A stretch of 64,000 nt of DNA, from IMG/VR virus record IMGVR_UViG_3300020477_000013, positions 137,586-201,585 of that record; one strand, given 5' to 3'. Under the pieces are notes generated by a model. The model ran no database searches, had not been told where the DNA came from, and saw only the letters and a program-made list of their open reading frames with translations. Origin of the DNA: a virus (taxonomy: Duplodnaviria > Caudoviricetes). How positions within the stretch are numbered: position 1 is the stretch's first letter; every line of letters starts with the position of its first letter. The position numbers and the translations under genes were made by a program. Below are positions 650-63,761 of this stretch, piece by piece.

Positions 650-1696
650 ATGGAAAAAGATTATTATGATATCTTAGGCGTATCTAGATCAGCGAATTCT
701 GATGATATAAAAAAAGCTTATCGAAAGCTAGCTGTTCAATTTCATCCGGATAAAAACCCGGACGATTCAGTTGCAGAAGAAAAATTCAAGGAGATAAGCG
801 AGGCATACAGCATTCTGTCTGATCCCACAAAGAGGTCACAATATGATTCACCTACGGGGTTTACACATGCCGAGGGCTTTAACACAGCGGGTGATTTCAA
901 CGATATCTTTCAGCAGTTTGGGTTTGACGATATTTTTTCTGGTTTTTTCGGCGGCCGCAGGAGGCGCCGTCAGCAGTCGAGGAACCCCAATATAGAGATG
1001 GAGATGGAGATCCCATTTCTCGACTCAGTACGCGGCGTGACGAATAAGATTCACCTGCAGCGCCGCGCGTCATGCGGCTCATGTCATGGCTCTGGTGCAA
1101 AGTTGGGTAGTAAGCCTGTGACATGCCCAACATGTAATGGCGCGGGAAGGACAGCACACAGGCAGGGGTTTATGTCTGTGACTATGGGATGCAGTACATG
1201 TTCTGGCTCCGGGAAAATTCTTACTGACCCTTGTTTGTCATGCTCTGGCACAGGCGTAACGCTGGAGACTGAAGAATTTGATATTAGGGTTCCTGCTGGG
1301 ATTCATGAAGGAGAATGTGTTGCTATAAGGGGGATGGGTGAGGTAGTGGATCCCTCTCTTCCACAAGGCGACTTAAATATTTTCATAAAAGTAAAGAAGA
1401 CAAAAGATTTTGACCGCCGAGGTAATGATATTTTCTCCGATGTATCAGTACCGTTTGAGATTGCTACGCTGGGAGGTACTGTAGATCTTACGACTATCCA
1501 CGGGACAAAAAAAGTGACTGTGCCGAAAGGTACACAGACAGGAAAGACAATTCGTGTAGCAGGTATGGGGGTTCACCATGAAACAGACTCTGCAAAGGGT
1601 GATCATTTTGCAAGGGTAATGATATCTGTTCCCACTACACTTACTGAGGATCAAGAGAATGTTTTGAGGATGTATTTTTCTTTGAACAATACATGA
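650..1696 (+). CDS. dnaJ: Chaperone DnaJ
   Basis: J-domain with HPD, G/F region, four CxxCxGxG repeats, C-terminal substrate domain. Confidence 0.95.
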
Positions 1697-6540: not shown

Positions 6541-7575
6541 TTGAGTAATATTACTAGCGCAATTTGTTTTGATGATGTCTTGCTTGTCCCTAAGTATTCT
6601 GATATCCATTCAAGAAAAGAGATCGACTTGAGCGTCCCGCTACCTCGTACTAACATGTCTTTGGAAGTACCTATCATCTCTAGCCCGATGGATACAGTTA
6701 CTGAAGATAACATGTCACATGCCATGTATGCATCAGGGGGCATGGGGATTATTCATAGGTATAATACTGTGGACAGGCAGGTCGAGATCTTAAATGATGC
6801 GATTATCGCCGGTGTGAAGCTGCCGGCTGCGGCTGTGGGTGTGTCTGGCGATTATCTAGATAGGGCAAGGGCATTGGCTGCCCATGGTGCAAAGGTTATA
6901 TGCATCGATATTGCTCACGGTCATCATATCCTTATGAAGAATGCATTGTATGAACTGAGATGCTCACTTGGTAAAAGCGTGCATATTATGGCAGGTAATG
7001 TTGCAACTCTTGATGCGTTTAATGATCTTGCAGACTGGGGTGCTGACAGTATCAGGGTAGGAATAGGGGGCGGTTCAATCTGCTCTACACGTGTCCAGAC
7101 TGGGCATGGAATGCCAACACTCCAGACAATTTTTCACTGCGCAAAATCAGATAGGGATGCGTTGCTTATCGCCGACGGAGGAATTCGAAATAGCGGAGAT
7201 ATCGTTAAGGCATTAGCGGCTGGAGCAGATGCGGTGATGCTGGGCTCTCTACTTGCAGGTACTGATGAGTCTCCTGGTGAGGTTATTTATATTCCCACCG
7301 AAGACAGGCGAGTCAAGGCTTATCGTGGTATGGCTTCAATAGAAGCCCAGGTTGATTGGCGGGGTCATACATCATCAGTGGAAGGTGTTTCAACGACCAT
7401 TGATTATAAGGGTCCTGTCGGGGTAGTCATTGGAGGCCTAGTAACAGGCATAAGGTCAGGCTTATCCTACTCTGGAGCAAGGGATGTAAGGGAGTTCCAA
7501 GCAGCAGCAGAATTTATAAGGCAAAGTGCAGCTGGGGCTGTTGAGAGTTCAACCCACATCCTAAAGTCTTCTTAG
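6541..7575 (+). CDS. guaB: IMP dehydrogenase / GMP reductase family, no CBS domains
   Basis: [19 protein letters not shown] catalytic Cys loop, ADGGI, YRGMAS, EGV; IMPDH versus GMPR not resolvable. Confidence 0.8.
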
Positions 7576-22566: not shown

Positions 22567-23001
22567 ATGAAGATATCTAAAAAAAAGATTCAACAAATCG
22601 TAGCTGAAAATATATTTGATTTGTTTATCGCACCAAAAAAAGTACATACGATGAAAATTTCCCAGCGGCAATTAAAAAGAATGATAAAAGAAGAGAAGGC
22701 AAAGCTCAAAGAAGCCGGCCCAAATTATCCCAAGCATGCATTTCCAGAGAAGACGCCGGCCAAACAAGGCGCTGCTATGACAACCTCTGGAGACCCACAG
22801 TCATACCATGACTTAGCGACACGCATGGATAAGATTACTTTATTGATTGAAGATCTTTCTATGGACTACGTCGATAGTGGCTGGTTGAAGGGAGGTGATC
22901 ATGCTTCTTTGGCTAATGATTTAGATAATCTCTTCTCTAACTCAGATAGGCTAGCTATGGCGGTTATGGGATTAGCACGATCAATGGGAGATATAGAGTG
23001 A
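22567..23001 (+). CDS. Leader-family protein with two tandem leaders
   Basis: MKISKKKIQQIVAE then MKISQRQLKRMIKEE at 22651. Confidence 0.78.
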   Translation: MKISKKKIQQIVAENIFDLFIAPKKVHTMKISQRQLKRMIKEEKAKLKEAGPNYPKHAFPEKTPAKQGAAMTTSGDPQSYHDLATRMDKITLLIEDLSMDYVDSGWLKGGDHASLANDLDNLFSNSDRLAMAVMGLARSMGDIE

Positions 23002-23336
23002 GAATCACCCGCAGGCAACTAGGAATAATTATCCGGGAAGAGATAGAGAAGTCGGCCCCCTTTGGAAGTGGCATGGAGCAGGCTGATCTCGACCCTGAAG
23101 AGAAAGAACTGATTGGGCACACATGACTGACACATGCCAAGCTGAAGTCTTCAGCTTTACAGGAATCTTACGGGATACGAGGGAATATGGCAGGAAAGGT
23201 TGTTTGGCACTCTTTAAAGAAGGACGGGTCAATCACTAAATATGATATAAGGTTCGGGGGTAAGATCCTTAGGGGGATTCCTGCTGCCCTTGTGGAGTCA
23301 ATTAAAGAAGTACAACATGAACATGAGGAGAGATAA
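22998..23336 (+). CDS. Leader-family protein with in-frame UGA at 23124 (candidate selenoprotein, 112 aa)
   Basis: GTG start MRITRRQLGIIIRE...IGHT*LTHAK...WHSL...YDIRF...HEHEER in one frame; SECIS-like hairpin 23139-23157. Confidence 0.65.
23139..23157 (+). promoter_or_regulatory. Candidate bacterial SECIS element
   Basis: AAGCTGAA-GTC-TTCAGCTT starting 12 nt after UGA, GU in apical loop. Confidence 0.55.
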
Positions 23337-23337
23337 G

Positions 23338-23583
23338 TTGAAAATTTCAAAAAAACAACTAAGAAGAATTATAAAGGAAGAATTCGACAATATGCTGAGT
23401 GAGCCGACTCCGGAGGATGTTGTGCCGGTAGAGGATGCATGGGCAGGTGGGGAAGATTTGGTGATGCCGATAGACCACTCAGAGGCCGGCGGGTCTGAAC
23501 CTGTAACTAGTTTTCCAGAGACGCTAGACATTGTCGACTCGATAACCGAAAGGGTAATGAGAAGATTAAGAGGGAATAGGTGA
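23338..23583 (+). CDS. Leader-family protein
   Basis: TTG start, MKISKKQLRRIIKEE, RBS GAGGAG. Confidence 0.8.
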   Translation: MKISKKQLRRIIKEEFDNMLSEPTPEDVVPVEDAWAGGEDLVMPIDHSEAGGSEPVTSFPETLDIVDSITERVMRRLRGNR

Positions 23584-26847: not shown

Positions 26848-28314
26848 ATGGGAAAGCTTAAGCAACTAAGAGGCAATTTGATTAGGGATTCCCTATCATC
26901 TGGAGCGAATAATGCATACCAGCTAGATACCGGCGCTATCTCTGTACAGACAGGAGAACATACAGGCAGGTCGCCTGATGCAAAGTGTATAGTAAGGGAT
27001 TCTAATACTGAGGGTGTCGTTGATTGGGAGAATAACCAGGCGTGTACACCATCTGAGTTTCTATCTTTACGCGATAAGATGCTGGCCTATTCTGGGACCA
27101 TTCACACATATAAGCAGGCCTTGTTTGCGGGCCGAGATGAAGACTACCAGATAGGTATTTCTGTTAATACTTCAACTGCATGGCAAGCATTATTTGCGAA
27201 TAATATGTTTGTGAGATGCAGGGAAAAAACAACCCCCCCTCAGGTCAGGTGGGAGATTTTTTGCTTTCCTGAATTCCAAGAAGAAGCTAGGGTGATGATA
27301 AGTTTTACACATCGCCAAATTCTCCTAACAGGTACCCATTATGCAGGGGAAATTAAGAAAAGTATTTTTACGGTTTTAAATTATATCCTCCCTGGGTTGA
27401 ACGTCCTCCCGATGCATTGCTCAGTCAATGCTGGTTCTGACCTCAAGAATTCTGCTGTATTTTTCGGCCTTTCGGGGACCGGAAAAACTACGTTGTCTGC
27501 ATCTCCAGGTCGTGTTTTGATCGGCGACGATGAGCATGGCTGGTCACCTGACGGGCTTTTTAATTTTGAGGGTGGCTGTTATGCAAAAGTCATAAATTTA
27601 TCAAGAGAGTCTGAGCCAGAGATTTGGGATGCTGTTAATCGAGAAGGCGCAATTCTCGAGAATGTTGTTGCCGATGAGTCAGGTGTACCAGATTTTTCCA
27701 GGAGTGACCTAACAGAAAATACGAGAGGCTCTTACCCTATTTCACATATTGATAATGCATCGCTAGAAGGTACAGCACCTCACCCTCAAAATATTATTTT
27801 TCTTACGTGTGATGCTTTTGGTGTGTTACCTCCTGTATCTAGATTGAGTAAAGAAGAAGCAGTTGAACATTTCTTGCTGGGGTATACTGCCAAGGTTGCC
27901 GGTACTGAGCGGGGTATATCTAGTCCAGTTGCAACGTTTTCACACTGTTTTGGCGCACCATTTATGCCTCACAAGCCGTCGGTATACGCAGATATTTTAC
28001 GAGATAAAATTAGCGATCATGATGTTGACTGTTGGCTTGTCAATACGGGGTGGGTAGCAGGAAACTATAACGACGGTCATAGGATTCCTCTGGGCGTTTC
28101 CAGAAAGATTGTCGACATGATACTTGCCGGTACTTTAGCTAATGAACAATTTTGCAAACATGAATATACTGGATTATCGATTCCATCTGGCACTAAAGAA
28201 ATACTGGGCTGTAAGCTTCAGCCTGAACTAAATTGGAAAGATGAATCTAAATATCAACGTGAGGTTATTTCACTAATGGAGAAATGGTCAAGCGTTCTAC
28301 AAAAACTGCGTTAG
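26848..28314 (+). CDS. pckA: Phosphoenolpyruvate carboxykinase (ATP)
   Basis: TGRSP, YAGEIKK, FFGLSGTGKTTLS, LIGDDEHGW, NFEGGCYAK, ENTR motifs. Confidence 0.96.
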   Translation: MGKLKQLRGNLIRDSLSSGANNAYQLDTGAISVQTGEHTGRSPDAKCIVRDSNTEGVVDWENNQACTPSEFLSLRDKMLAYSGTIHTYKQALFAGRDEDYQIGISVNTSTAWQALFANNMFVRCREKTTPPQVRWEIFCFPEFQEEARVMISFTHRQILLTGTHYAGEIKKSIFTVLNYILPGLNVLPMHCSVNAGSDLKNSAVFFGLSGTGKTTLSASPGRVLIGDDEHGWSPDGLFNFEGGCYAKVINLSRESEPEIWDAVNREGAILENVVADESGVPDFSRSDLTENTRGSYPISHIDNASLEGTAPHPQNIIFLTCDAFGVLPPVSRLSKEEAVEHFLLGYTAKVAGTERGISSPVATFSHCFGAPFMPHKPSVYADILRDKISDHDVDCWLVNTGWVAGNYNDGHRIPLGVSRKIVDMILAGTLANEQFCKHEYTGLSIPSGTKEILGCKLQPELNWKDESKYQREVISLMEKWSSVLQKLR

Positions 28315-33981: not shown

Positions 33982-34068
33982 GGCACCGTGGCGGAATTGG
34001 TATACGCATCAGACTTAAAATCTGACGCCCGTACGGGATTGAGGGTTCGAGTCCCTCCGGTGCTACCA
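33982..34068 (+). tRNA. tRNA-Leu(TAA)
   Basis: Cloverleaf with long variable arm, CTTAAAA loop, CCA. Confidence 0.95.
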
Positions 34069-44380: not shown

Positions 44381-44617
44381 ATGAAGAACTATATAGCCTG
44401 CGGTGTAGCAGGTCTTGTCATGGGATTTTTGGTGAGCTGGTTTGTGATGACTGTTTGGGATGGGCTTATTCCTGCTCCACCCGAGAACGTTATTATCCGG
44501 CAGGCTCTTATGAGCCATTGTCAAGATACACCTGTGAGGGTATTATCCTGCCCCGGTCGGGTAGATACGTGTGTTTGTGGAAATCTTACAGAGAAGGATC
44601 TAAAGGGTGGAAAATAA
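44381..44617 (+). CDS. Small membrane-anchored protein
   Basis: N-terminal TM, Cys-containing C-terminus. Confidence 0.6.
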   Translation: MKNYIACGVAGLVMGFLVSWFVMTVWDGLIPAPPENVIIRQALMSHCQDTPVRVLSCPGRVDTCVCGNLTEKDLKGGK

Positions 44618-46118
44618 TATTTTAGACGCTGGCGCCGAAGAGTTTATAACTGAGCTTGCGGGTGTTTTTCATACGAGTCTTAAGGTTTTGCTAGGTGCCC
44701 GCAGGGATAGACAACTACAATATGACAGCGGGCACCTACCTGATTTTCTGCAAGAGACAGAAGGTATTAGAAATTCAACATGGGAAGTTTCACCCGTACC
44801 TGAAGATATTCATGATAGAAGGGTAGAGATCACAGGCCCACCTGATAGAAAAATGGTGATTAATGCACTCAATTCTGGTGCGAATGTCTTCATGGCTGAT
44901 TTTGAGGATAGCATGTCGCCCACATGGGAGAATGTGCTAAGTGGTCAGCAAAATTTATATGACGCAGTTCGAGGCACTATAACTTATGAGCACCCCACAA
45001 AGGGGACATACAGATTGTGCTCCAATCCCGCAGTTTTATTTGTCAGGCCTAGGGGGTTACACCTACCGGAGTCTCATTTTAAAGTAGGGGGAGAGGATGT
45101 ACCAGCGTGCTTGTTCGACTTTGGTATTTTTATGTATAATAATGCCAGGTACCTTGTTGATAGTGGGCGCGCTCCGTATTTTTACCTGCCAAAGCTAGAG
45201 CATTATTTGGAGGCAAGGTGGTGGAACAGCGTATTCACCTGGACCCAGGAGAAATTAGGCATTGAGCCCGGTACGATCAAGGCAACAGTTTTGCTAGAGA
45301 CCCTTCCTGCTGCATTTCAAATGAATGAAATTCTTTATGAGCTTAAGGAGCACTCAGCAGGCTTGAATTGTGGTAGGTGGGACTACATCTTTAGCTATAT
45401 TAAGACGCTGGGGGGTGATCCTTCATATGTGCTACCTGATAGGTCACAGGTTACGATGGAATCCTCTTTTATGACTGCGTATTCAAATTTGGTCGTTCAC
45501 ACATGTCATAAAAGAGGAATTCATGCCATGGGAGGAATGGCGGCTCAGATCCCCATTAGGGATGATGCTGCAGCAAATGCCTCAGCAATGGAAAAAGTTT
45601 ACCAGGATAAGCGCAGAGAAGTCGCCGCCGGACATGACGGCACATGGGTAGCTCATCCTGGCCTTATATCCATAGCAAAAGATGTATTTAATGAATTCAT
45701 GCCTGGTAAAAACCAAATATCTTTAAAGACAGAGTGCTCATGTTCACAGAGCGATTTGCTGCAACCGTCGCAGGGAACTATCACCCGACAGGGCCTACAG
45801 CAAAATGTTGATGTAGGTATTCGATATATTTCTGCATGGCTTAACGGGAATGGGTGCGTGCCTCTTTATAATTTAATGGAAGATGCAGCTACTGCAGAGA
45901 TATCTCGCACGCAGATTTGGCAATGGATAAAGCATGGTGCAACCCTGGACGACGGCACACCGGTTAGCCACGGTTTGCTGGAGGCAATTACAGGAAAAAT
46001 TGTATGGGATAATCCATCATTGAAAGATGGCGCAAATTTATTTTTAGACATGTGTTTAAATGAAACCGTGGTAGAGTTTTTAACCATACCTGCATATAAA
46101 AGGATTATGAATGGGTAA
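44607..46118 (+). CDS. aceB: Malate synthase A
   Basis: [59 protein letters not shown]. Confidence 0.96.
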
Positions 46119-47355
46119 TAATGATGATCGTTGGCATGGTATATCCAGGCCGTATTCTACAGAAGATGTTGTACGTTTGAGGGGATCACTTCCGGAACGT
46201 TATGTCCTTGCCGAAAGGACGTCAAAGAAACTATGGAGGCTGCTCAACGAAAAGGACTATACACATGCTATGGGTGCCGTTACAGGCAATCAAGCTATGC
46301 AGATGGTGAAGGGTGGCTTGCCGGCAATATACTGTTCGGGGTGGCAAGTTGCAGCTGATGCTAACGATTCACATGAAATGTATCCCGATCAAAGTCTTTA
46401 TGCGGTCCACAGCGTTCCCATGCTAGTCCAAAAAATAAACAATGCTTTGAGGAGAGCAGACCAGGTTGAGTGGTCCGAGAATAGCTCATCTACGTCAAGG
46501 GACTGGTTTGTACCGATCGTAGCAGATGCCGAAGCTGGGTTTGGGGGATCACTTAACGCGTTTGAATTAATGAAATCTATGATCAGGGCAGGTGCGGCGG
46601 GTGTACACTTTGAAGATCAGTTAAGCTCTGCGAAAAAGTGCGGTCATCTCGGTGGTAAGGTCTTAGTGCCAGGCAGCGAATTTATCAAAAAACTAGTTGC
46701 GGCCCGCCTGGCTGCTGACGTGATGGGAACGGACACCATATTGATAGCAAGGACTGATGCCAATAGCGCAAAACTATTAACGTCAGACATAGATCCGGAA
46801 GATAAGCCATTCATTACTTCAAGTGACAGGACGCCAGAGGGATTTTATCGAATCACCGGTGGTCTAGATCTAGCTATTTCTAGAGGGCTAAGATATGCAC
46901 CCTACGCAGACCTAATTTGGTGTGAGACTGGAAAGCCTGACTTAGAAGAAGCAAAGAGATTCGCAGATGCTATTCATGAGAAGTATCCTGGAAAACTGCT
47001 GGCGTACAATTGTTCACCGAGCTTTAACTGGAAGAAAAATCTGGATGATGAAACAATAGCAAAGTTCCAACGTGAGCTAGGGAAGATGGGTTACAAGTTT
47101 CAATTCATTACCCTGGCTGGTTTTCATAATCTCAATTACCACATGTTTCAGTTAGCTCGAAATTATGAAGAAAAAGATATGACGGCATACTCTGAATTAC
47201 AGGAGAGTGAATTTGAGGCAGAGGTTAATGGGTATACGGCAACTAAGCATCAGAGAGAAGTTGGGACCGGATACTTTGACGCGGTTGCTCAGGTGATATC
47301 AAGCGATTCATCTACGCTAGCATTAAAAGAGTCAACAGAGGCGGAGCAGTTTTAG
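46111..47355 (+). CDS. aceA: Isocitrate lyase
   Basis: [46 protein letters not shown]. Confidence 0.97.
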
Positions 47356-62792: not shown

Positions 62793-62821
62793 GTGTAAAA
62801 ATACGGGTTTTGTTTTAGTAT
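62793..62821 (+). promoter_or_regulatory. Promoter variant GTGTAA-N17-TAGTAT
   Basis: Upstream of uvsE. Confidence 0.55.
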
Positions 62822-62837
62822 GGGGTATGGAGGCAGT

Positions 62838-63761
62838 ATGTCAGTTAATCTAGGATATGCGTGTATTAATACCACGCTACAAAAGCAATCAAAAATTATG
62901 TGTAATCGTGGTATGATCAAACGCACATGGCTAGCCAAAGGCATGCCGTATGCCAGCACGCTAGCTCTTTCAAATGTGCGAGGCCTGCGTGAGGTTGTCA
63001 AGTGGAACAACGCTAATGACATTAATGTATATCGCATTACATCTTGTCTATTCCCGTGGATGTCTGAGTATGACATTACACAGCTACCAGACTATAATGA
63101 TATCGCTGCTATTCTTGCCGATGTAGGTTGTATTGCACGCCAGTCCGGCCAGCGTCTCTCATTTCATCCAGGCCAGTTTTGTGTGTTGGCTAGTCCCAAC
63201 GAGTCTACTGTAGTCAAGTCCCTTCGCGAGCTTGATCAAACAGCACAGATTATGGACATGCTTGGCATGCCTAAATCACCAGCGGCCAAGATTAATATTC
63301 ATGTCGGTGGTGCATATGGTGAACGTGATAATGCATTAGCTCGTTTCTGTACAGCGTTTAAACGCCTTAGTTATTCCGCCCAGTCACGCCTTACGGTTGA
63401 GAATGACGATAAGCCTAATCTATATTCTACCAAAATGTTGTATGATGGTGTGCACAAGCGCATCGGCATTCCCATTGTGTTTGACTCGCACCATTTTGCC
63501 ATCGGCCCACAGGACCTTGACTATCATGACTCATATTATCTAGCGCGTAGCTCTTGGCCGACGGGCATCAAGCAACAGGCACACCACAGTAACAGCAGGC
63601 GTACGTACGAAGATCCTACTGCAAGCAAGCCGGCACACAGTACATGGTTCTATACGCCATTTGAGTCATATAACGAACCAACCGACGTTGTTCTCGAGTG
63701 TAAAGCTAAGGAGCTGGCGGTCTTCAAATACCGTAAGGATTTTATGAGAAAAGCCGCTTGA
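62838..63761 (+). CDS. uvsE: UV-damage endonuclease UvsE/UVDE
   Basis: LGYACIN, YRI, RLSFHPGQF, IHVGG, LTVEND, FDSHH, ECKAKE. Confidence 0.92.
   Translation: MSVNLGYACINTTLQKQSKIMCNRGMIKRTWLAKGMPYASTLALSNVRGLREVVKWNNANDINVYRITSCLFPWMSEYDITQLPDYNDIAAILADVGCIARQSGQRLSFHPGQFCVLASPNESTVVKSLRELDQTAQIMDMLGMPKSPAAKINIHVGGAYGERDNALARFCTAFKRLSYSAQSRLTVENDDKPNLYSTKMLYDGVHKRIGIPIVFDSHHFAIGPQDLDYHDSYYLARSSWPTGIKQQAHHSNSRRTYEDPTASKPAHSTWFYTPFESYNEPTDVVLECKAKELAVFKYRKDFMRKAA

What the first reader, a model, noticed from the sequence alone, without database searches (positions are those of the whole stretch)
22998..23336. Candidate phage-encoded selenoprotein: in-frame UGA plus SECIS-like hairpin in a leader-family gene
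Seen: the leader-bearing ORF (GTG 22998) reads ...KELIGHT-UGA(23124)-LTHAKLKSSALQESYGIRGNMAGKVVWHSLKKDGSITKYDIRFGGKILRGIPAALVESIKEVQHEHEER-TAA(23334). The frame stays open for 69 sense codons past the UGA and ends just before the next gene. Twelve nt after the UGA is the perfect hairpin AAGCTGAA-GTC-TTCAGCTT, with loop GU at +24/+25. Known: the E. coli fdhF SECIS starts 11 nt after UGA with G23/U24 in the loop, read by SelB. Inference: H-T-U-L-T-H matches an H-x-C-x-x-H motif I recall in marine T4-like phage proteins that also have downstream YD(V/I) and terminal H-x-H (not verified). No selA/B/D or tRNA-Sec is in the window, so a selenium-using host would supply the machinery. An alternative is a separate 49-aa ORF from ATG 23187.
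Basis: partly seen in the sequence, partly recalled or inferred. Interest (0 to 1): 0.9.

Follow-up and report, generated by a model that had tools for sequence, protein, structure and literature searches.

The report
Phage gene encoding a selenocysteine protein
A small gene of an uncultured marine T4-like phage has an internal UGA "stop" that dozens of related phages keep at the same spot, next to a co-evolving RNA hairpin and where distant relatives have cysteine, so it is most likely read as selenocysteine, which I could not find reported for any virus of bacteria.

Summary

**What is there.** The ORF runs from GTG 22998 to TAA 23336. It has an in-frame TGA at 23124-23126. A perfect 8-bp hairpin (23139-23157, loop GUC) starts 12 nt after the TGA.

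**Comparative evidence.**
- All 46 distinct homologous sequences whose DNA I read carry TGA at this column. None has TGG, TGC or TGT. They come from IMG/VR, TARA, ENA and JGI.
- The "W" shown for this column in protein databases is an artefact of code-4 gene calling.
- Deeper homologues, including proteins of cultured Prochlorococcus and Synechococcus T4-like phages, have Cys there, in an H-x-C-x-x-H motif.
- The hairpin sits in the same register in every UGA form. It is 96% paired, and 6 of 8 pairs show compensatory changes.
- The hairpin is not explained by the amino-acid sequence, and it is absent from all five Cys forms examined.
- The frame after the UGA is under purifying selection and has no conserved start codon.
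- The genome uses TGA as an ordinary stop elsewhere.

**Main gap.** Neither this phage record nor five large relatives encode selA, selB, selD or tRNA-Sec, so a selenium-using host must supply them. That host is unknown.

**Context.** The protein has no known family (a small beta-barrel with conserved His residues) and carries the phage's capsid-targeting-like leader. This scan has noted similar UGA/hairpin candidates in other phage protein families on other DNA.

The parts
22986..22990 (+). Shine-Dalgarno-like GGGAG, 7 nt before the GTG start
   Evidence: Read directly.
22998..23336 (+). Complete candidate selenoprotein gene: GTG start, 42 codons, UGA(Sec), 69 codons, TAA. The product is 112 residues.
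   Evidence: Full-length homologues P0003 and P0007 align end to end.
22998..23042 (+). N-terminal leader (M/V)RITRRQLGIIIREE of the phage's leader-tagged gene family, a candidate capsid-targeting tag
   Evidence: A regex finds 39 leader copies in the genome. T4-type gp23 and prohead protease are present. The capsid-targeting reading is a lead from earlier notes.
23118..23135 (+). H-T-U-L-T-H motif. It corresponds to H-x-C-x-x-H in the Cys homologues.
   Evidence: Alignments: H41 is invariant and H46 is present in at least 90% of sequences.
23124..23126 (+). In-frame UGA, the candidate selenocysteine codon, always followed by C
   Evidence: TGA in 46 of 46 distinct homologous DNA sequences. 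Cys in nine deeper homologues. Unchanged in contigs of runs from a different study.
23127..23138 (+). 12-nt spacer between the UGA and the stem, coding L-T-H-A
   Evidence: The spacer has the same length in all 44 aligned sequences, and variation there is at third codon positions.
23139..23157 (+). SECIS-like hairpin: 8-bp stem (23139-23146 pairs with 23150-23157) and 3-nt loop GUC (23147-23149). The apical loop begins 20 nt after the UGA.
   Evidence: Folds. Covariation: 96.1% paired, 6 of 8 pairs compensatory, 0 of 500 shuffles reach this. Synonymous-recoding control. Absent from the Cys forms.
23205..23210 (+). Conserved W-H of the WHSL motif (H71 is invariant)
23316..23324 (+). C-terminal H-E-H motif (H107 and H109)
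23334..23336 (+). TAA stop of the full-length product

Best explanation
The stretch 22998-23336 is one gene for a 112-residue protein whose codon 43 (UGA, 23124-23126) is decoded as selenocysteine. As the ribosome approaches the UGA, the mRNA hairpin 12 nt downstream (23139-23157) acts as a bacterial-type SECIS. It recruits the host's SelB-GTP-Sec-tRNA(Sec) complex, which out-competes release factor 2 at a weak UGA-C stop signal. Sec is inserted and translation runs on to TAA 23334. The phage encodes none of the machinery, so it relies on a host that has selA, selB, selC and selD. The product belongs to a virus-only family: a small beta-barrel with H-x-(U/C)-x-x-H, WH and H-x-H motifs. The Sec/Cys residue probably sits with the conserved histidines in a metal-binding or redox centre. 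It also carries the phage's N-terminal leader, so it is probably loaded into the T4-type prohead and trimmed there. Shown here: conservation of the UGA, the Sec/Cys pairing, hairpin covariation and its restriction to UGA forms, in-frame selection downstream, and ordinary use of TGA as a stop elsewhere. Inferred: SelB dependence, selenium incorporation, host capability, metal or redox function, and packaging.
For: (1) The UGA is conserved. Nine database homologues translate to their deposited protein only 'with_TGA=W' or are split at the TGA. A pattern scan of IMG/VR that allowed any TGN found 42 family members, all with TGA. The divergent members L167 (AHN-TGA-ATH) and L168 (GHT-TGA-ATH) also carry TGA. 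(2) There is a Sec/Cys pair. Nine deeper homologues have Cys at the same column in H-x-C-x-x-H, and five were confirmed as TGT or TGC in DNA. On a maximum-likelihood tree the UGA and Cys forms separate at a single branch (support 93/82). (3) The hairpin is present in the same register in all 44 sequences. It is 96.1% paired, 6 of 8 pairs show changes on both sides, and the covariation score is 0.440 against 0.125 in shuffles (0 of 500 reach it); slid controls give 37-61% pairing. (4) The hairpin is not a by-product of the peptide. Synonymous recoding gives 3.95 of 8 pairs and -1.0 kcal, against 7.68 of 8 and -7.2 kcal observed, with a median p of 0.003. Synonymous divergence drops to 0.19-0.34 in the hairpin codons, against 0.76-0.85 in the flanks. 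(5) The Cys forms lack it: 1-3 of 8 pairs and dG from 0 to -2.5. (6) The geometry fits the bacterial SECIS rule of 16-37 nt from the UGA to the apical loop (PMC10778597). Here the distance is 20 nt, and the first loop base is G in 46 of 46 sequences. (7) The downstream frame is coding: pN/pS is 0.26-0.39 over codons +12 to +40. No start codon is conserved after the UGA. (8) TGA is a normal stop in this genome: 59 of 207 long plus-strand frames end in TGA, including the gene immediately upstream. (9) Contigs of runs from a different study keep the TGA.
Against: No selD, selA, selB or tRNA-Sec was found in this record, which is about 73% complete. The five large relatives searched, two of them 96-100% complete, have no selD, tRNA-Sec or UCA-anticodon tRNA; they were not searched for selA or selB. 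The host is unknown, so its ability to decode Sec is untested. Capsid and PEPCK similarities gave no usable host signal. The hairpin is shorter and simpler than the E. coli fdhF SECIS: there is no bulged U, and the loop U is not conserved across clades. There is no expression, proteomic or selenium-labelling evidence. Codons +1 to +3 after the UGA were fixed by my search pattern, so their conservation in the IMG/VR set is partly ascertainment.
Confidence: 0.82

Rival explanations
1. Programmed read-through without selenium. The UGA is decoded at some frequency by a near-cognate tRNA (Trp or Cys), with the hairpin slowing the ribosome or hindering RF2. This would give a short 42-residue product and a long one, as with the UGA read-through that makes the Q-beta A1 protein.
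For: Conservation of the UGA, the hairpin and the downstream frame would also be expected under this model. No Sec machinery was found in this phage, and no selD or tRNA-Sec in the five relatives searched. UGA-C is a leaky stop context (my own knowledge).
Against: The column is Cys, never Trp, in sense-codon homologues. If Trp or Cys insertion were the aim, a one-base change to TGG or TGY would do it at full efficiency, yet 0 of 46 sequences in a deep clade made that change. The fixed 12-nt spacing and the invariant loop G match what SelB-type SECIS elements require. No suppressor tRNA was found.
Confidence: 0.09
2. The UGA is a true stop and there are two separate small genes (42 aa and about 49-64 aa). 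The hairpin would then serve translational coupling, re-initiation or mRNA stability.
For: Standard gene callers annotate it this way. About three quarters of the 101 representative clusters end at residue 42 or start near residue 49-50 (my tally of that table).
Against: ATG 23187 is not conserved; homologues have K, R or P there. No in-frame ATG, GTG or TTG is conserved after the UGA. The residues directly after the UGA, including H46, are conserved and align with a continuous domain in the Cys homologues. The hairpin disappears exactly when the codon is Cys. The hairpin is not scored as a terminator.
Confidence: 0.04
3. The gene is broken by a nonsense mutation, the TGA is a sequencing or assembly error, or the phage uses a genetic code in which TGA is a sense codon (code 4 or 25).
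For: A single in-frame TGA in one assembly would look like this. Some pipelines did translate the homologues with code 4.
Against: TGA stands in 46 distinct sequences from many samples and studies. There is purifying selection downstream. TGA ends 59 of 207 long plus-strand frames, including the neighbouring gene, and reading TGA as sense gains no more open frame than reading TAA or TAG as sense.
Confidence: 0.01

Closest known systems
Bacterial selenoprotein genes with an in-ORF SECIS read by SelB (prototype E. coli fdhF; bSECIS consensus of Zhang and Gladyshev 2005)
   Same: There is an in-frame UGA followed by C. A stem-loop lies inside the ORF just downstream. The UGA-to-apical-loop distance is 20 nt, within the 16-37 nt rule. 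There is a G in the apical loop (GU in this clade, at +24/+25, against G23/U24 in fdhF from my own knowledge). Homologues have Cys at the same column.
   Different: The gene is encoded by a virus that has none of the machinery itself. The hairpin is a plain 8-bp stem with a 3-nt loop and no bulged U. The loop U is not conserved across clades (GUC, GGG, GGA, GUU). The protein family is not among known or GOS-predicted selenoprotein families.
Poxvirus selenoproteins (glutathione peroxidase homologues of molluscum contagiosum virus and fowlpox virus)
   Same: These are virus-encoded proteins whose UGA is redefined as Sec by host machinery (PMC8310308).
   Different: They are eukaryotic viruses with eukaryotic SECIS/SBP2 decoding, and the genes are captured host enzymes of known function. 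Here it is a phage, the SECIS is of the bacterial type, and the family is virus-only with unknown function.
Cys-form homologues in cultured T4-like cyanophages (P-HM2 PHM2_164, annotated 'possible cytitidyltransferase', T4-like gene cluster 534; also P-HM1, MED4-213, P-SSM7, S-ShM2, S-RIM14, S-SSM2)
   Same: They share the domain: H-S-C-A-T-x, then H-T-L, then G-N-I-T-H-Y-D-V, then H-E-H.
   Different: They use Cys (TGY) instead of UGA. The domain is embedded in much longer proteins. I did not examine these records themselves for a hairpin; the metagenomic Cys forms have none.
T4 internal proteins (IPI, IPII, IPIII, Alt) with the capsid-targeting sequence cut by the gp21 prohead protease
   Same: There is a short N-terminal basic amphipathic leader ending in (I/L)-x-E on many unrelated small proteins. 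The phage has T4-type gp23 and a gp21-type protease.
   Different: The leader family here is far larger (39 copies). Neither packaging nor cleavage has been shown. No T4 internal protein is a selenoprotein.

Membership tests
Bacterial-type selenoprotein gene (UGA + bSECIS) | In-frame UGA conserved at the same column across diverged homologues | tested here: met
   TGA in 46 of 46 distinct sequences, with 0 TGG and 0 TGY.
Bacterial-type selenoprotein gene (UGA + bSECIS) | Cys-containing homologues aligning with the UGA (Sec/Cys pair) | tested here: met
   Nine Cys forms with H-x-C-x-x-H. Five were confirmed as TGT or TGC in DNA. Cultured cyanophage proteins also have Cys.
Bacterial-type selenoprotein gene (UGA + bSECIS) | Coding frame continues past the UGA under purifying selection, with no new start codon | tested here: met
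   pN/pS is 0.26-0.39 for codons +12 to +40. No conserved ATG, GTG or TTG follows the UGA. Codons +1 to +3 are biased by the search pattern.
Bacterial-type selenoprotein gene (UGA + bSECIS) | Stem-loop downstream, 16-37 nt from the UGA to the apical loop, with a conserved G in the loop | tested here: met
   The distance is 20 nt and the first loop base is G in 46 of 46 sequences. The rule is quoted from PMC10778597.
Bacterial-type selenoprotein gene (UGA + bSECIS) | Structure supported by covariation and specific to the UGA forms | tested here: met
   Six of 8 pairs are compensatory and 0 of 500 shuffles reach the observed score. Synonymous-recoding control. Absent from 5 of 5 Cys forms.
Bacterial-type selenoprotein gene (UGA + bSECIS) | selA, selB, selC and selD available in the cell where the gene is translated | not testable with these tools
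   The host is unknown. This phage record lacks selA, selB, selD and tRNA-Sec. The five relatives lack selD and tRNA-Sec and were not searched for selA or selB.
Bacterial-type selenoprotein gene (UGA + bSECIS) | Selenium actually incorporated (75Se labelling or mass spectrometry) | not testable with these tools
   This needs an experiment.
E. coli fdhF-type SECIS specifically | Bulged U in the upper stem and GU in the loop recognised by E. coli SelB (my own knowledge) | tested here: not met
   The stem is perfect with no bulge. The loop is GUC in this clade but GGG or GGA in others. It works like a bSECIS but is not an fdhF-type copy.
T4-type capsid-targeting-sequence cargo | N-terminal leader ending in (I/L)-x-E, together with a T4-type prohead protease and capsid in the genome | tested here: met
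   The leader is MRITRRQLGIIIREE, with 39 copies in the genome. PF07068 scores 217.8 bits and PF03420 scores 92.3 bits.
T4-type capsid-targeting-sequence cargo | Protein found in the capsid and cleaved after the leader | not testable with these tools
   This needs virion proteomics.
Known selenoprotein families (GOS_A, GOS_B, GOS_C and other families of the GOS selenoproteome) | Sequence similarity to a listed family | tested here: not met
   The motifs GHTU and WHSL are absent from the held GOS supplementary sequences. The GOS_A, GOS_B and GOS_C sequences are unrelated. One supplementary file was truncated when stored.

The most novel reading that the evidence does not exclude
A whole clade of marine jumbo T4-like phages makes a selenocysteine-containing protein with a His-rich metal or redox centre. 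Its leader directs it into the capsid, and it is injected with the DNA. That would be a selenium-dependent virion cargo acting on the host at the start of infection. Phage Sec forms and Cys forms would then track whether the host can decode Sec, which would make the UGA a host-range marker.
Probability: 0.3. Interest if true: 0.92.

Novelty: new variant of a known kind. Interest (0 to 1): 0.86.

Why it matters
Selenocysteine recoding is known in cells and in two poxviruses. I found no report of it in a virus of bacteria, either in recent selenoproteome reviews or in full-text searches.

If the reading holds, it has four consequences.
- Phages would be shown to exploit the host's most specialised translation pathway. 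That would tie phage fitness and host range to host selenium metabolism.
- A new, virus-only selenoprotein family with a clean Sec/Cys contrast would be added to the known set.
- A systematic annotation error would be exposed. Gene callers either split these genes at the UGA or translate them with code 4 and write Trp.
- The 19-nt SECIS is very compact and has natural sequence variants, which could be useful for engineering Sec insertion.

Tried and rejected
- **DNA search against cultured phages.** A blastn search of the 4-kb neighbourhood found no match. A tblastn search with the 69-residue downstream part also found none.
- **Protein families.** Pfam gave nothing for the read-through product or its neighbours, and only sub-threshold hits for family members.
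- **RNA families.** Rfam gave nothing meaningful on 22900-23400.
- **Alignment-based locus search.** This failed for lack of a conserved stretch. A first DNA pattern had too few specified bases.
- **Structure.** The AlphaFold2 model is of medium quality (pLDDT 69, about 80 for the core at residues 46-100). It matches only generic small beta-barrels such as SH3, KOW and Tudor domains: best Foldseek E-value 0.1, best VIA Z-score 5.0. This gives no functional inference. The protein-atlas feature search returned only unnamed viral clusters.
- **Host inference.** The capsid is at most 54% identical to any record, and about 50% to a Flavobacterium phage and a Microcystis phage. PEPCK is at most 50% identical to a broad set of mostly Alphaproteobacteria. 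Neither identifies a host.
- **tRNA-Sec model hits.** All are below threshold and correspond to long-arm tRNA-Leu or tRNA-Ser.
- **Second candidate in the genome.** A TGA with a 6-bp hairpin at window 55142 translates to an implausible peptide and was dismissed as chance.
- **Paralogues.** There is no Cys-form paralogue in this genome.
- **Expression.** No RNA holder was listed among the sequencing runs.
- **Earlier selenoprotein predictions.** The new GOS families GOS_A, GOS_B and GOS_C are unrelated.
- **Rejected readings.** I rejected the separate 49-aa ORF from ATG 23187, the overlapping ATG 23123 frame, genome-wide code 4 or 25, a pseudogene, and an intrinsic terminator.

Full report
**1. 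The observation**

The window is the last 64 kb of a 201,585-bp IMG/VR virus record. The record is linear, estimated 73% complete, and has 43.6% GC.
- GTG at 22998, 7 nt after GGGAG, overlapping the TGA stop of the upstream gene.
- Forty-two codons ending ...ELIGHT.
- TGA at 23124-23126.
- Sixty-nine further sense codons.
- TAA at 23334-23336, with the next leader-bearing gene starting at TTG 23338.

Twelve nucleotides after the TGA lies AAGCTGAA-GTC-TTCAGCTT (23139-23157). A mechanical ORF list splits the stretch into a 42-aa and a 49-aa ORF. A scan of the whole record looked for in-frame TGAs with at least 30 open codons on each side and a nearby perfect hairpin. It found nine sites. This one has the longest stem (8 bp), and the only other plus-strand site, at window 55142, has a 6-bp stem and was dismissed.

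**2. Not a recoded genome, not an error**

TGA ends 59 of 207 long plus-strand frames, against 86 for TAA and 62 for TAG. Reading TGA as sense gains no more open frame than reading TAA or TAG as sense. Contigs from public runs of a different study cover the codon with no difference at 23124-23126. The only nearby variants are synonymous.

**3. The UGA is conserved**

A word-indexed protein search found seven close homologues that span the position. All show "W" there. Fetching their DNA showed that each translates to the deposited protein only with TGA read as Trp. These short contigs had been called under code 4. On a 56-kb JGI contig the same gene is split into 42-aa and 64-aa calls at a TGA.

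A full HMMER scan of 1.84 billion representative proteins gave 101 clusters. By my count of that table, about three quarters end at query residue 42 or begin near residue 49-50, which again means they were cut at the UGA.

I then scanned IMG/VR with a degenerate DNA pattern for G-H-T-(TGN)-L-T-H that allowed any base in the third position of TGN:
- All 42 true family members have TGA.
- None has TGG.
- The TGC and TGT hits are unrelated chance matches in closed frames.

Two more divergent members, AHN-TGA-ATH and GHT-TGA-ATH, also carry TGA. In total, 46 distinct sequences were read and all have TGA.

**4. A Sec/Cys pair**

Five of them were confirmed as TGT or TGC in DNA.

The Cys form also occurs in cultured T4-like cyanophages: P-HM1, P-HM2, MED4-213, P-SSM7, S-ShM2, S-RIM14 and S-SSM2. 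In P-HM2 it lies inside PHM2_164, annotated "possible cytitidyltransferase".

On a maximum-likelihood tree of 26 core domains, the UGA and Cys forms separate at a single branch (support 93/82). Path lengths within the UGA clade exceed one change per site, so the UGA has been held for a long time. Caveat: not every "W" row in that tree was checked at the DNA level.

**5. The hairpin**

In all 44 distinct sequences first collected, a stem starts exactly 12 nt after the UGA and closes a 3-nt loop whose first base is G. The loops are GUC, GGG or GGA. The two later divergent members fit the same register.

| Measure | UGA forms | Control |
|---|---|---|
| Cells paired on the ungapped alignment | 96.1% | 37-61% with the partner slid |
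| Pairs with changes on both sides | 6 of 8 | not reached in any of 500 shuffles |
| Covariation score | 0.440 | 0.125 in shuffles; 0 of 500 reach it |
| Pairs formed in register | 7.68 of 8 | 3.95 of 8 after synonymous recoding |
| Folding energy of the 19-mer | -7.2 kcal | -1.0 kcal after synonymous recoding |
| Synonymous divergence (pS) in hairpin codons | 0.19-0.34 | 0.76-0.85 in flanking codons |

The stem sequences differ widely, for example AAGCUGAA/UUCAGCUU, AAGGUUCA/UGAAUCUU and CGGAAGAA/UUCUUCCU. The peptide they encode changes with them (KLKSSAL, KVQSESL, RKKGSSL and KRKDSAL). The structure is not forced by the protein: for each sequence, a median of 0.3% of synonymous recodings reach the observed pairing.

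The five Cys-form genes form only 1-3 of 8 pairs in that register, with dG from 0 to -2.5 kcal. This includes one whose peptide there (HAKLKSISEQ) resembles the window's. So the hairpin goes with the UGA, as a SECIS should.

The geometry fits the published bacterial rule of 16-37 nt between the UGA and the apical loop (PMC10778597); here it is 20 nt. The element is not a copy of the E. coli fdhF SECIS. It has no bulged U, and the loop U is confined to this sub-clade.

**6. The frame is read through**

There is no conserved in-frame start after the UGA. The window's ATG 23187 is K, R or P in homologues. Directly after the UGA, variation falls on third codon positions (CTN ACN CAY). This part is biased by my search pattern. 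Codons +12 to +40, which were outside the pattern, have pN/pS of 0.26-0.39. The hairpin is not scored as a terminator.

**7. Machinery and host**

The record has no selD, selA or selB. It has no tRNA-Sec or UCA-anticodon tRNA. The best hit to the tRNA-Sec model, at 42.2 bits, is the long-arm tRNA-Leu(UAA) at 33982-34068.

Five large related records, two of them 96-100% complete, also lack selD and any tRNA-Sec. I did not search them for selA or selB.

The host therefore has to supply the pathway, and the host is unknown. The phage has a T4-type major capsid protein and prohead protease. Its capsid is at most 54% identical to any phage record, and about 50% to its nearest cultured relatives, a Flavobacterium phage and a Microcystis phage. 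Its PEPCK is at most 50% identical to a broad set of mostly alphaproteobacterial enzymes. This is the main open point. The Sec trait is reported to be relatively frequent in marine communities (PMC5029168).

**8. What the protein is**

There is no Pfam family. The nearest protein-atlas clusters are unnamed and, where taxa are recorded, viral. The AlphaFold2 model is of medium confidence. Residues 46-100 form a small beta-barrel that matches only generic SH3, KOW and Tudor-like domains, with a best Z-score of 5.0.

The invariant or nearly invariant residues are H41, the Sec/Cys at 43, H46, G66, H71, G77, Y82 and H107. H109 is invariant among the close homologues. I infer a metal-binding or redox centre built from Sec/Cys and histidines. 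This inference is weak.

The N-terminus is one of 39 copies of the phage's MKITKRQLRRIIKEE-type leader. Earlier notes of this scan read that leader as an expanded T4-like capsid-targeting tag. I confirmed only the leader array and the presence of the T4-type protease and capsid genes.

**9. Comparison with what is known, and novelty**

The mechanism proposed is the ordinary bacterial one: UGA plus an in-ORF SECIS read by SelB. Three things are new.
- The carrier is a bacteriophage, and indeed a whole clade of marine jumbo T4-like phages.
- The protein family is new. It is not among the GOS selenoprotein families, whose held supplementary sequences I checked.
- The SECIS is very compact.

Reviews and full-text searches up to 2026 name only poxvirus selenoproteins among viruses and none in phages. 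This scan's own notebook lists similar UGA/hairpin candidates in other phage protein families on other DNA. None is this family.

**10. Verdict**

My confidence that this is a Sec codon with a functional bacterial-type SECIS is about 0.82. The remainder goes mostly to selenium-independent read-through. The decisive missing items are host identity with selABCD, and direct detection of Sec in the product.

Noticed in passing
window 26848-28314, 44607-46118, 46111-47355: The phage encodes ATP-type PEP carboxykinase, malate synthase and isocitrate lyase. That is a complete glyoxylate shunt plus a gluconeogenic step, an unusual set of auxiliary metabolic genes.
   Followed up: partly
window 650-1696, 6541-7575, 62820-63761: The window also encodes a full-length DnaJ (J domain, CXXCXGXG and C-terminal domain), an IMPDH/GMP-reductase family enzyme and a UvdE UV endonuclease.
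   Followed up: no
protein databases: P0001-P0007, P0028-P0030, P0037, P0040, P0042 and others: Public protein collections hold this family either with a false Trp at the UGA (short contigs called under code 4) or cut into two pieces at the UGA. By my count, about three quarters of the 101 representative clusters are truncated there.
   Followed up: yes
L159:630-993 (related IMG/VR record estimated 100% complete): A related jumbo phage that carries the UGA form encodes a standard one-piece tmRNA (Rfam RF00023, 103.9 bits; tag ANDNVEYDYALAA) next to a tRNA cluster. The tag style may hint at a proteobacterial host.
   Followed up: partly
L157:216-428: A 70-aa gene with a weak precomputed hit to Pfam Rdx (the SelW/SelT-like family) lies about 850 bp upstream of a Cys-form homologue, with two genes between them, on a marine contig. 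Its sequence shows no in-frame UGA.
   Followed up: partly
window 33982-34068: tRNA-Leu(UAA) with a long variable arm scores 42.2 bits against the tRNA-Sec model, below the 47-bit threshold. Its anticodon is not UCA, so it is not a tRNA-Sec.
   Followed up: yes
window 22998-23001 and 23334-23340: The genes of the leader array are tightly coupled. The GTG start overlaps the upstream TGA stop (GTGA), and the next gene's TTG start lies 1 nt after the TAA.
   Followed up: no
P0031, P0039 (Cys forms): Some Cys-form proteins carry two leader-like motifs in tandem, one at the N-terminus and one just before the conserved domain. These may be fused cargo units or internal cleavage sites.
   Followed up: no
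window 55142: This is the only other plus-strand in-frame TGA with a nearby hairpin (6 bp, loop GGCTG). The surrounding frame translates to an implausible peptide in a GC-richer stretch, so it is probably chance.
   Followed up: partly
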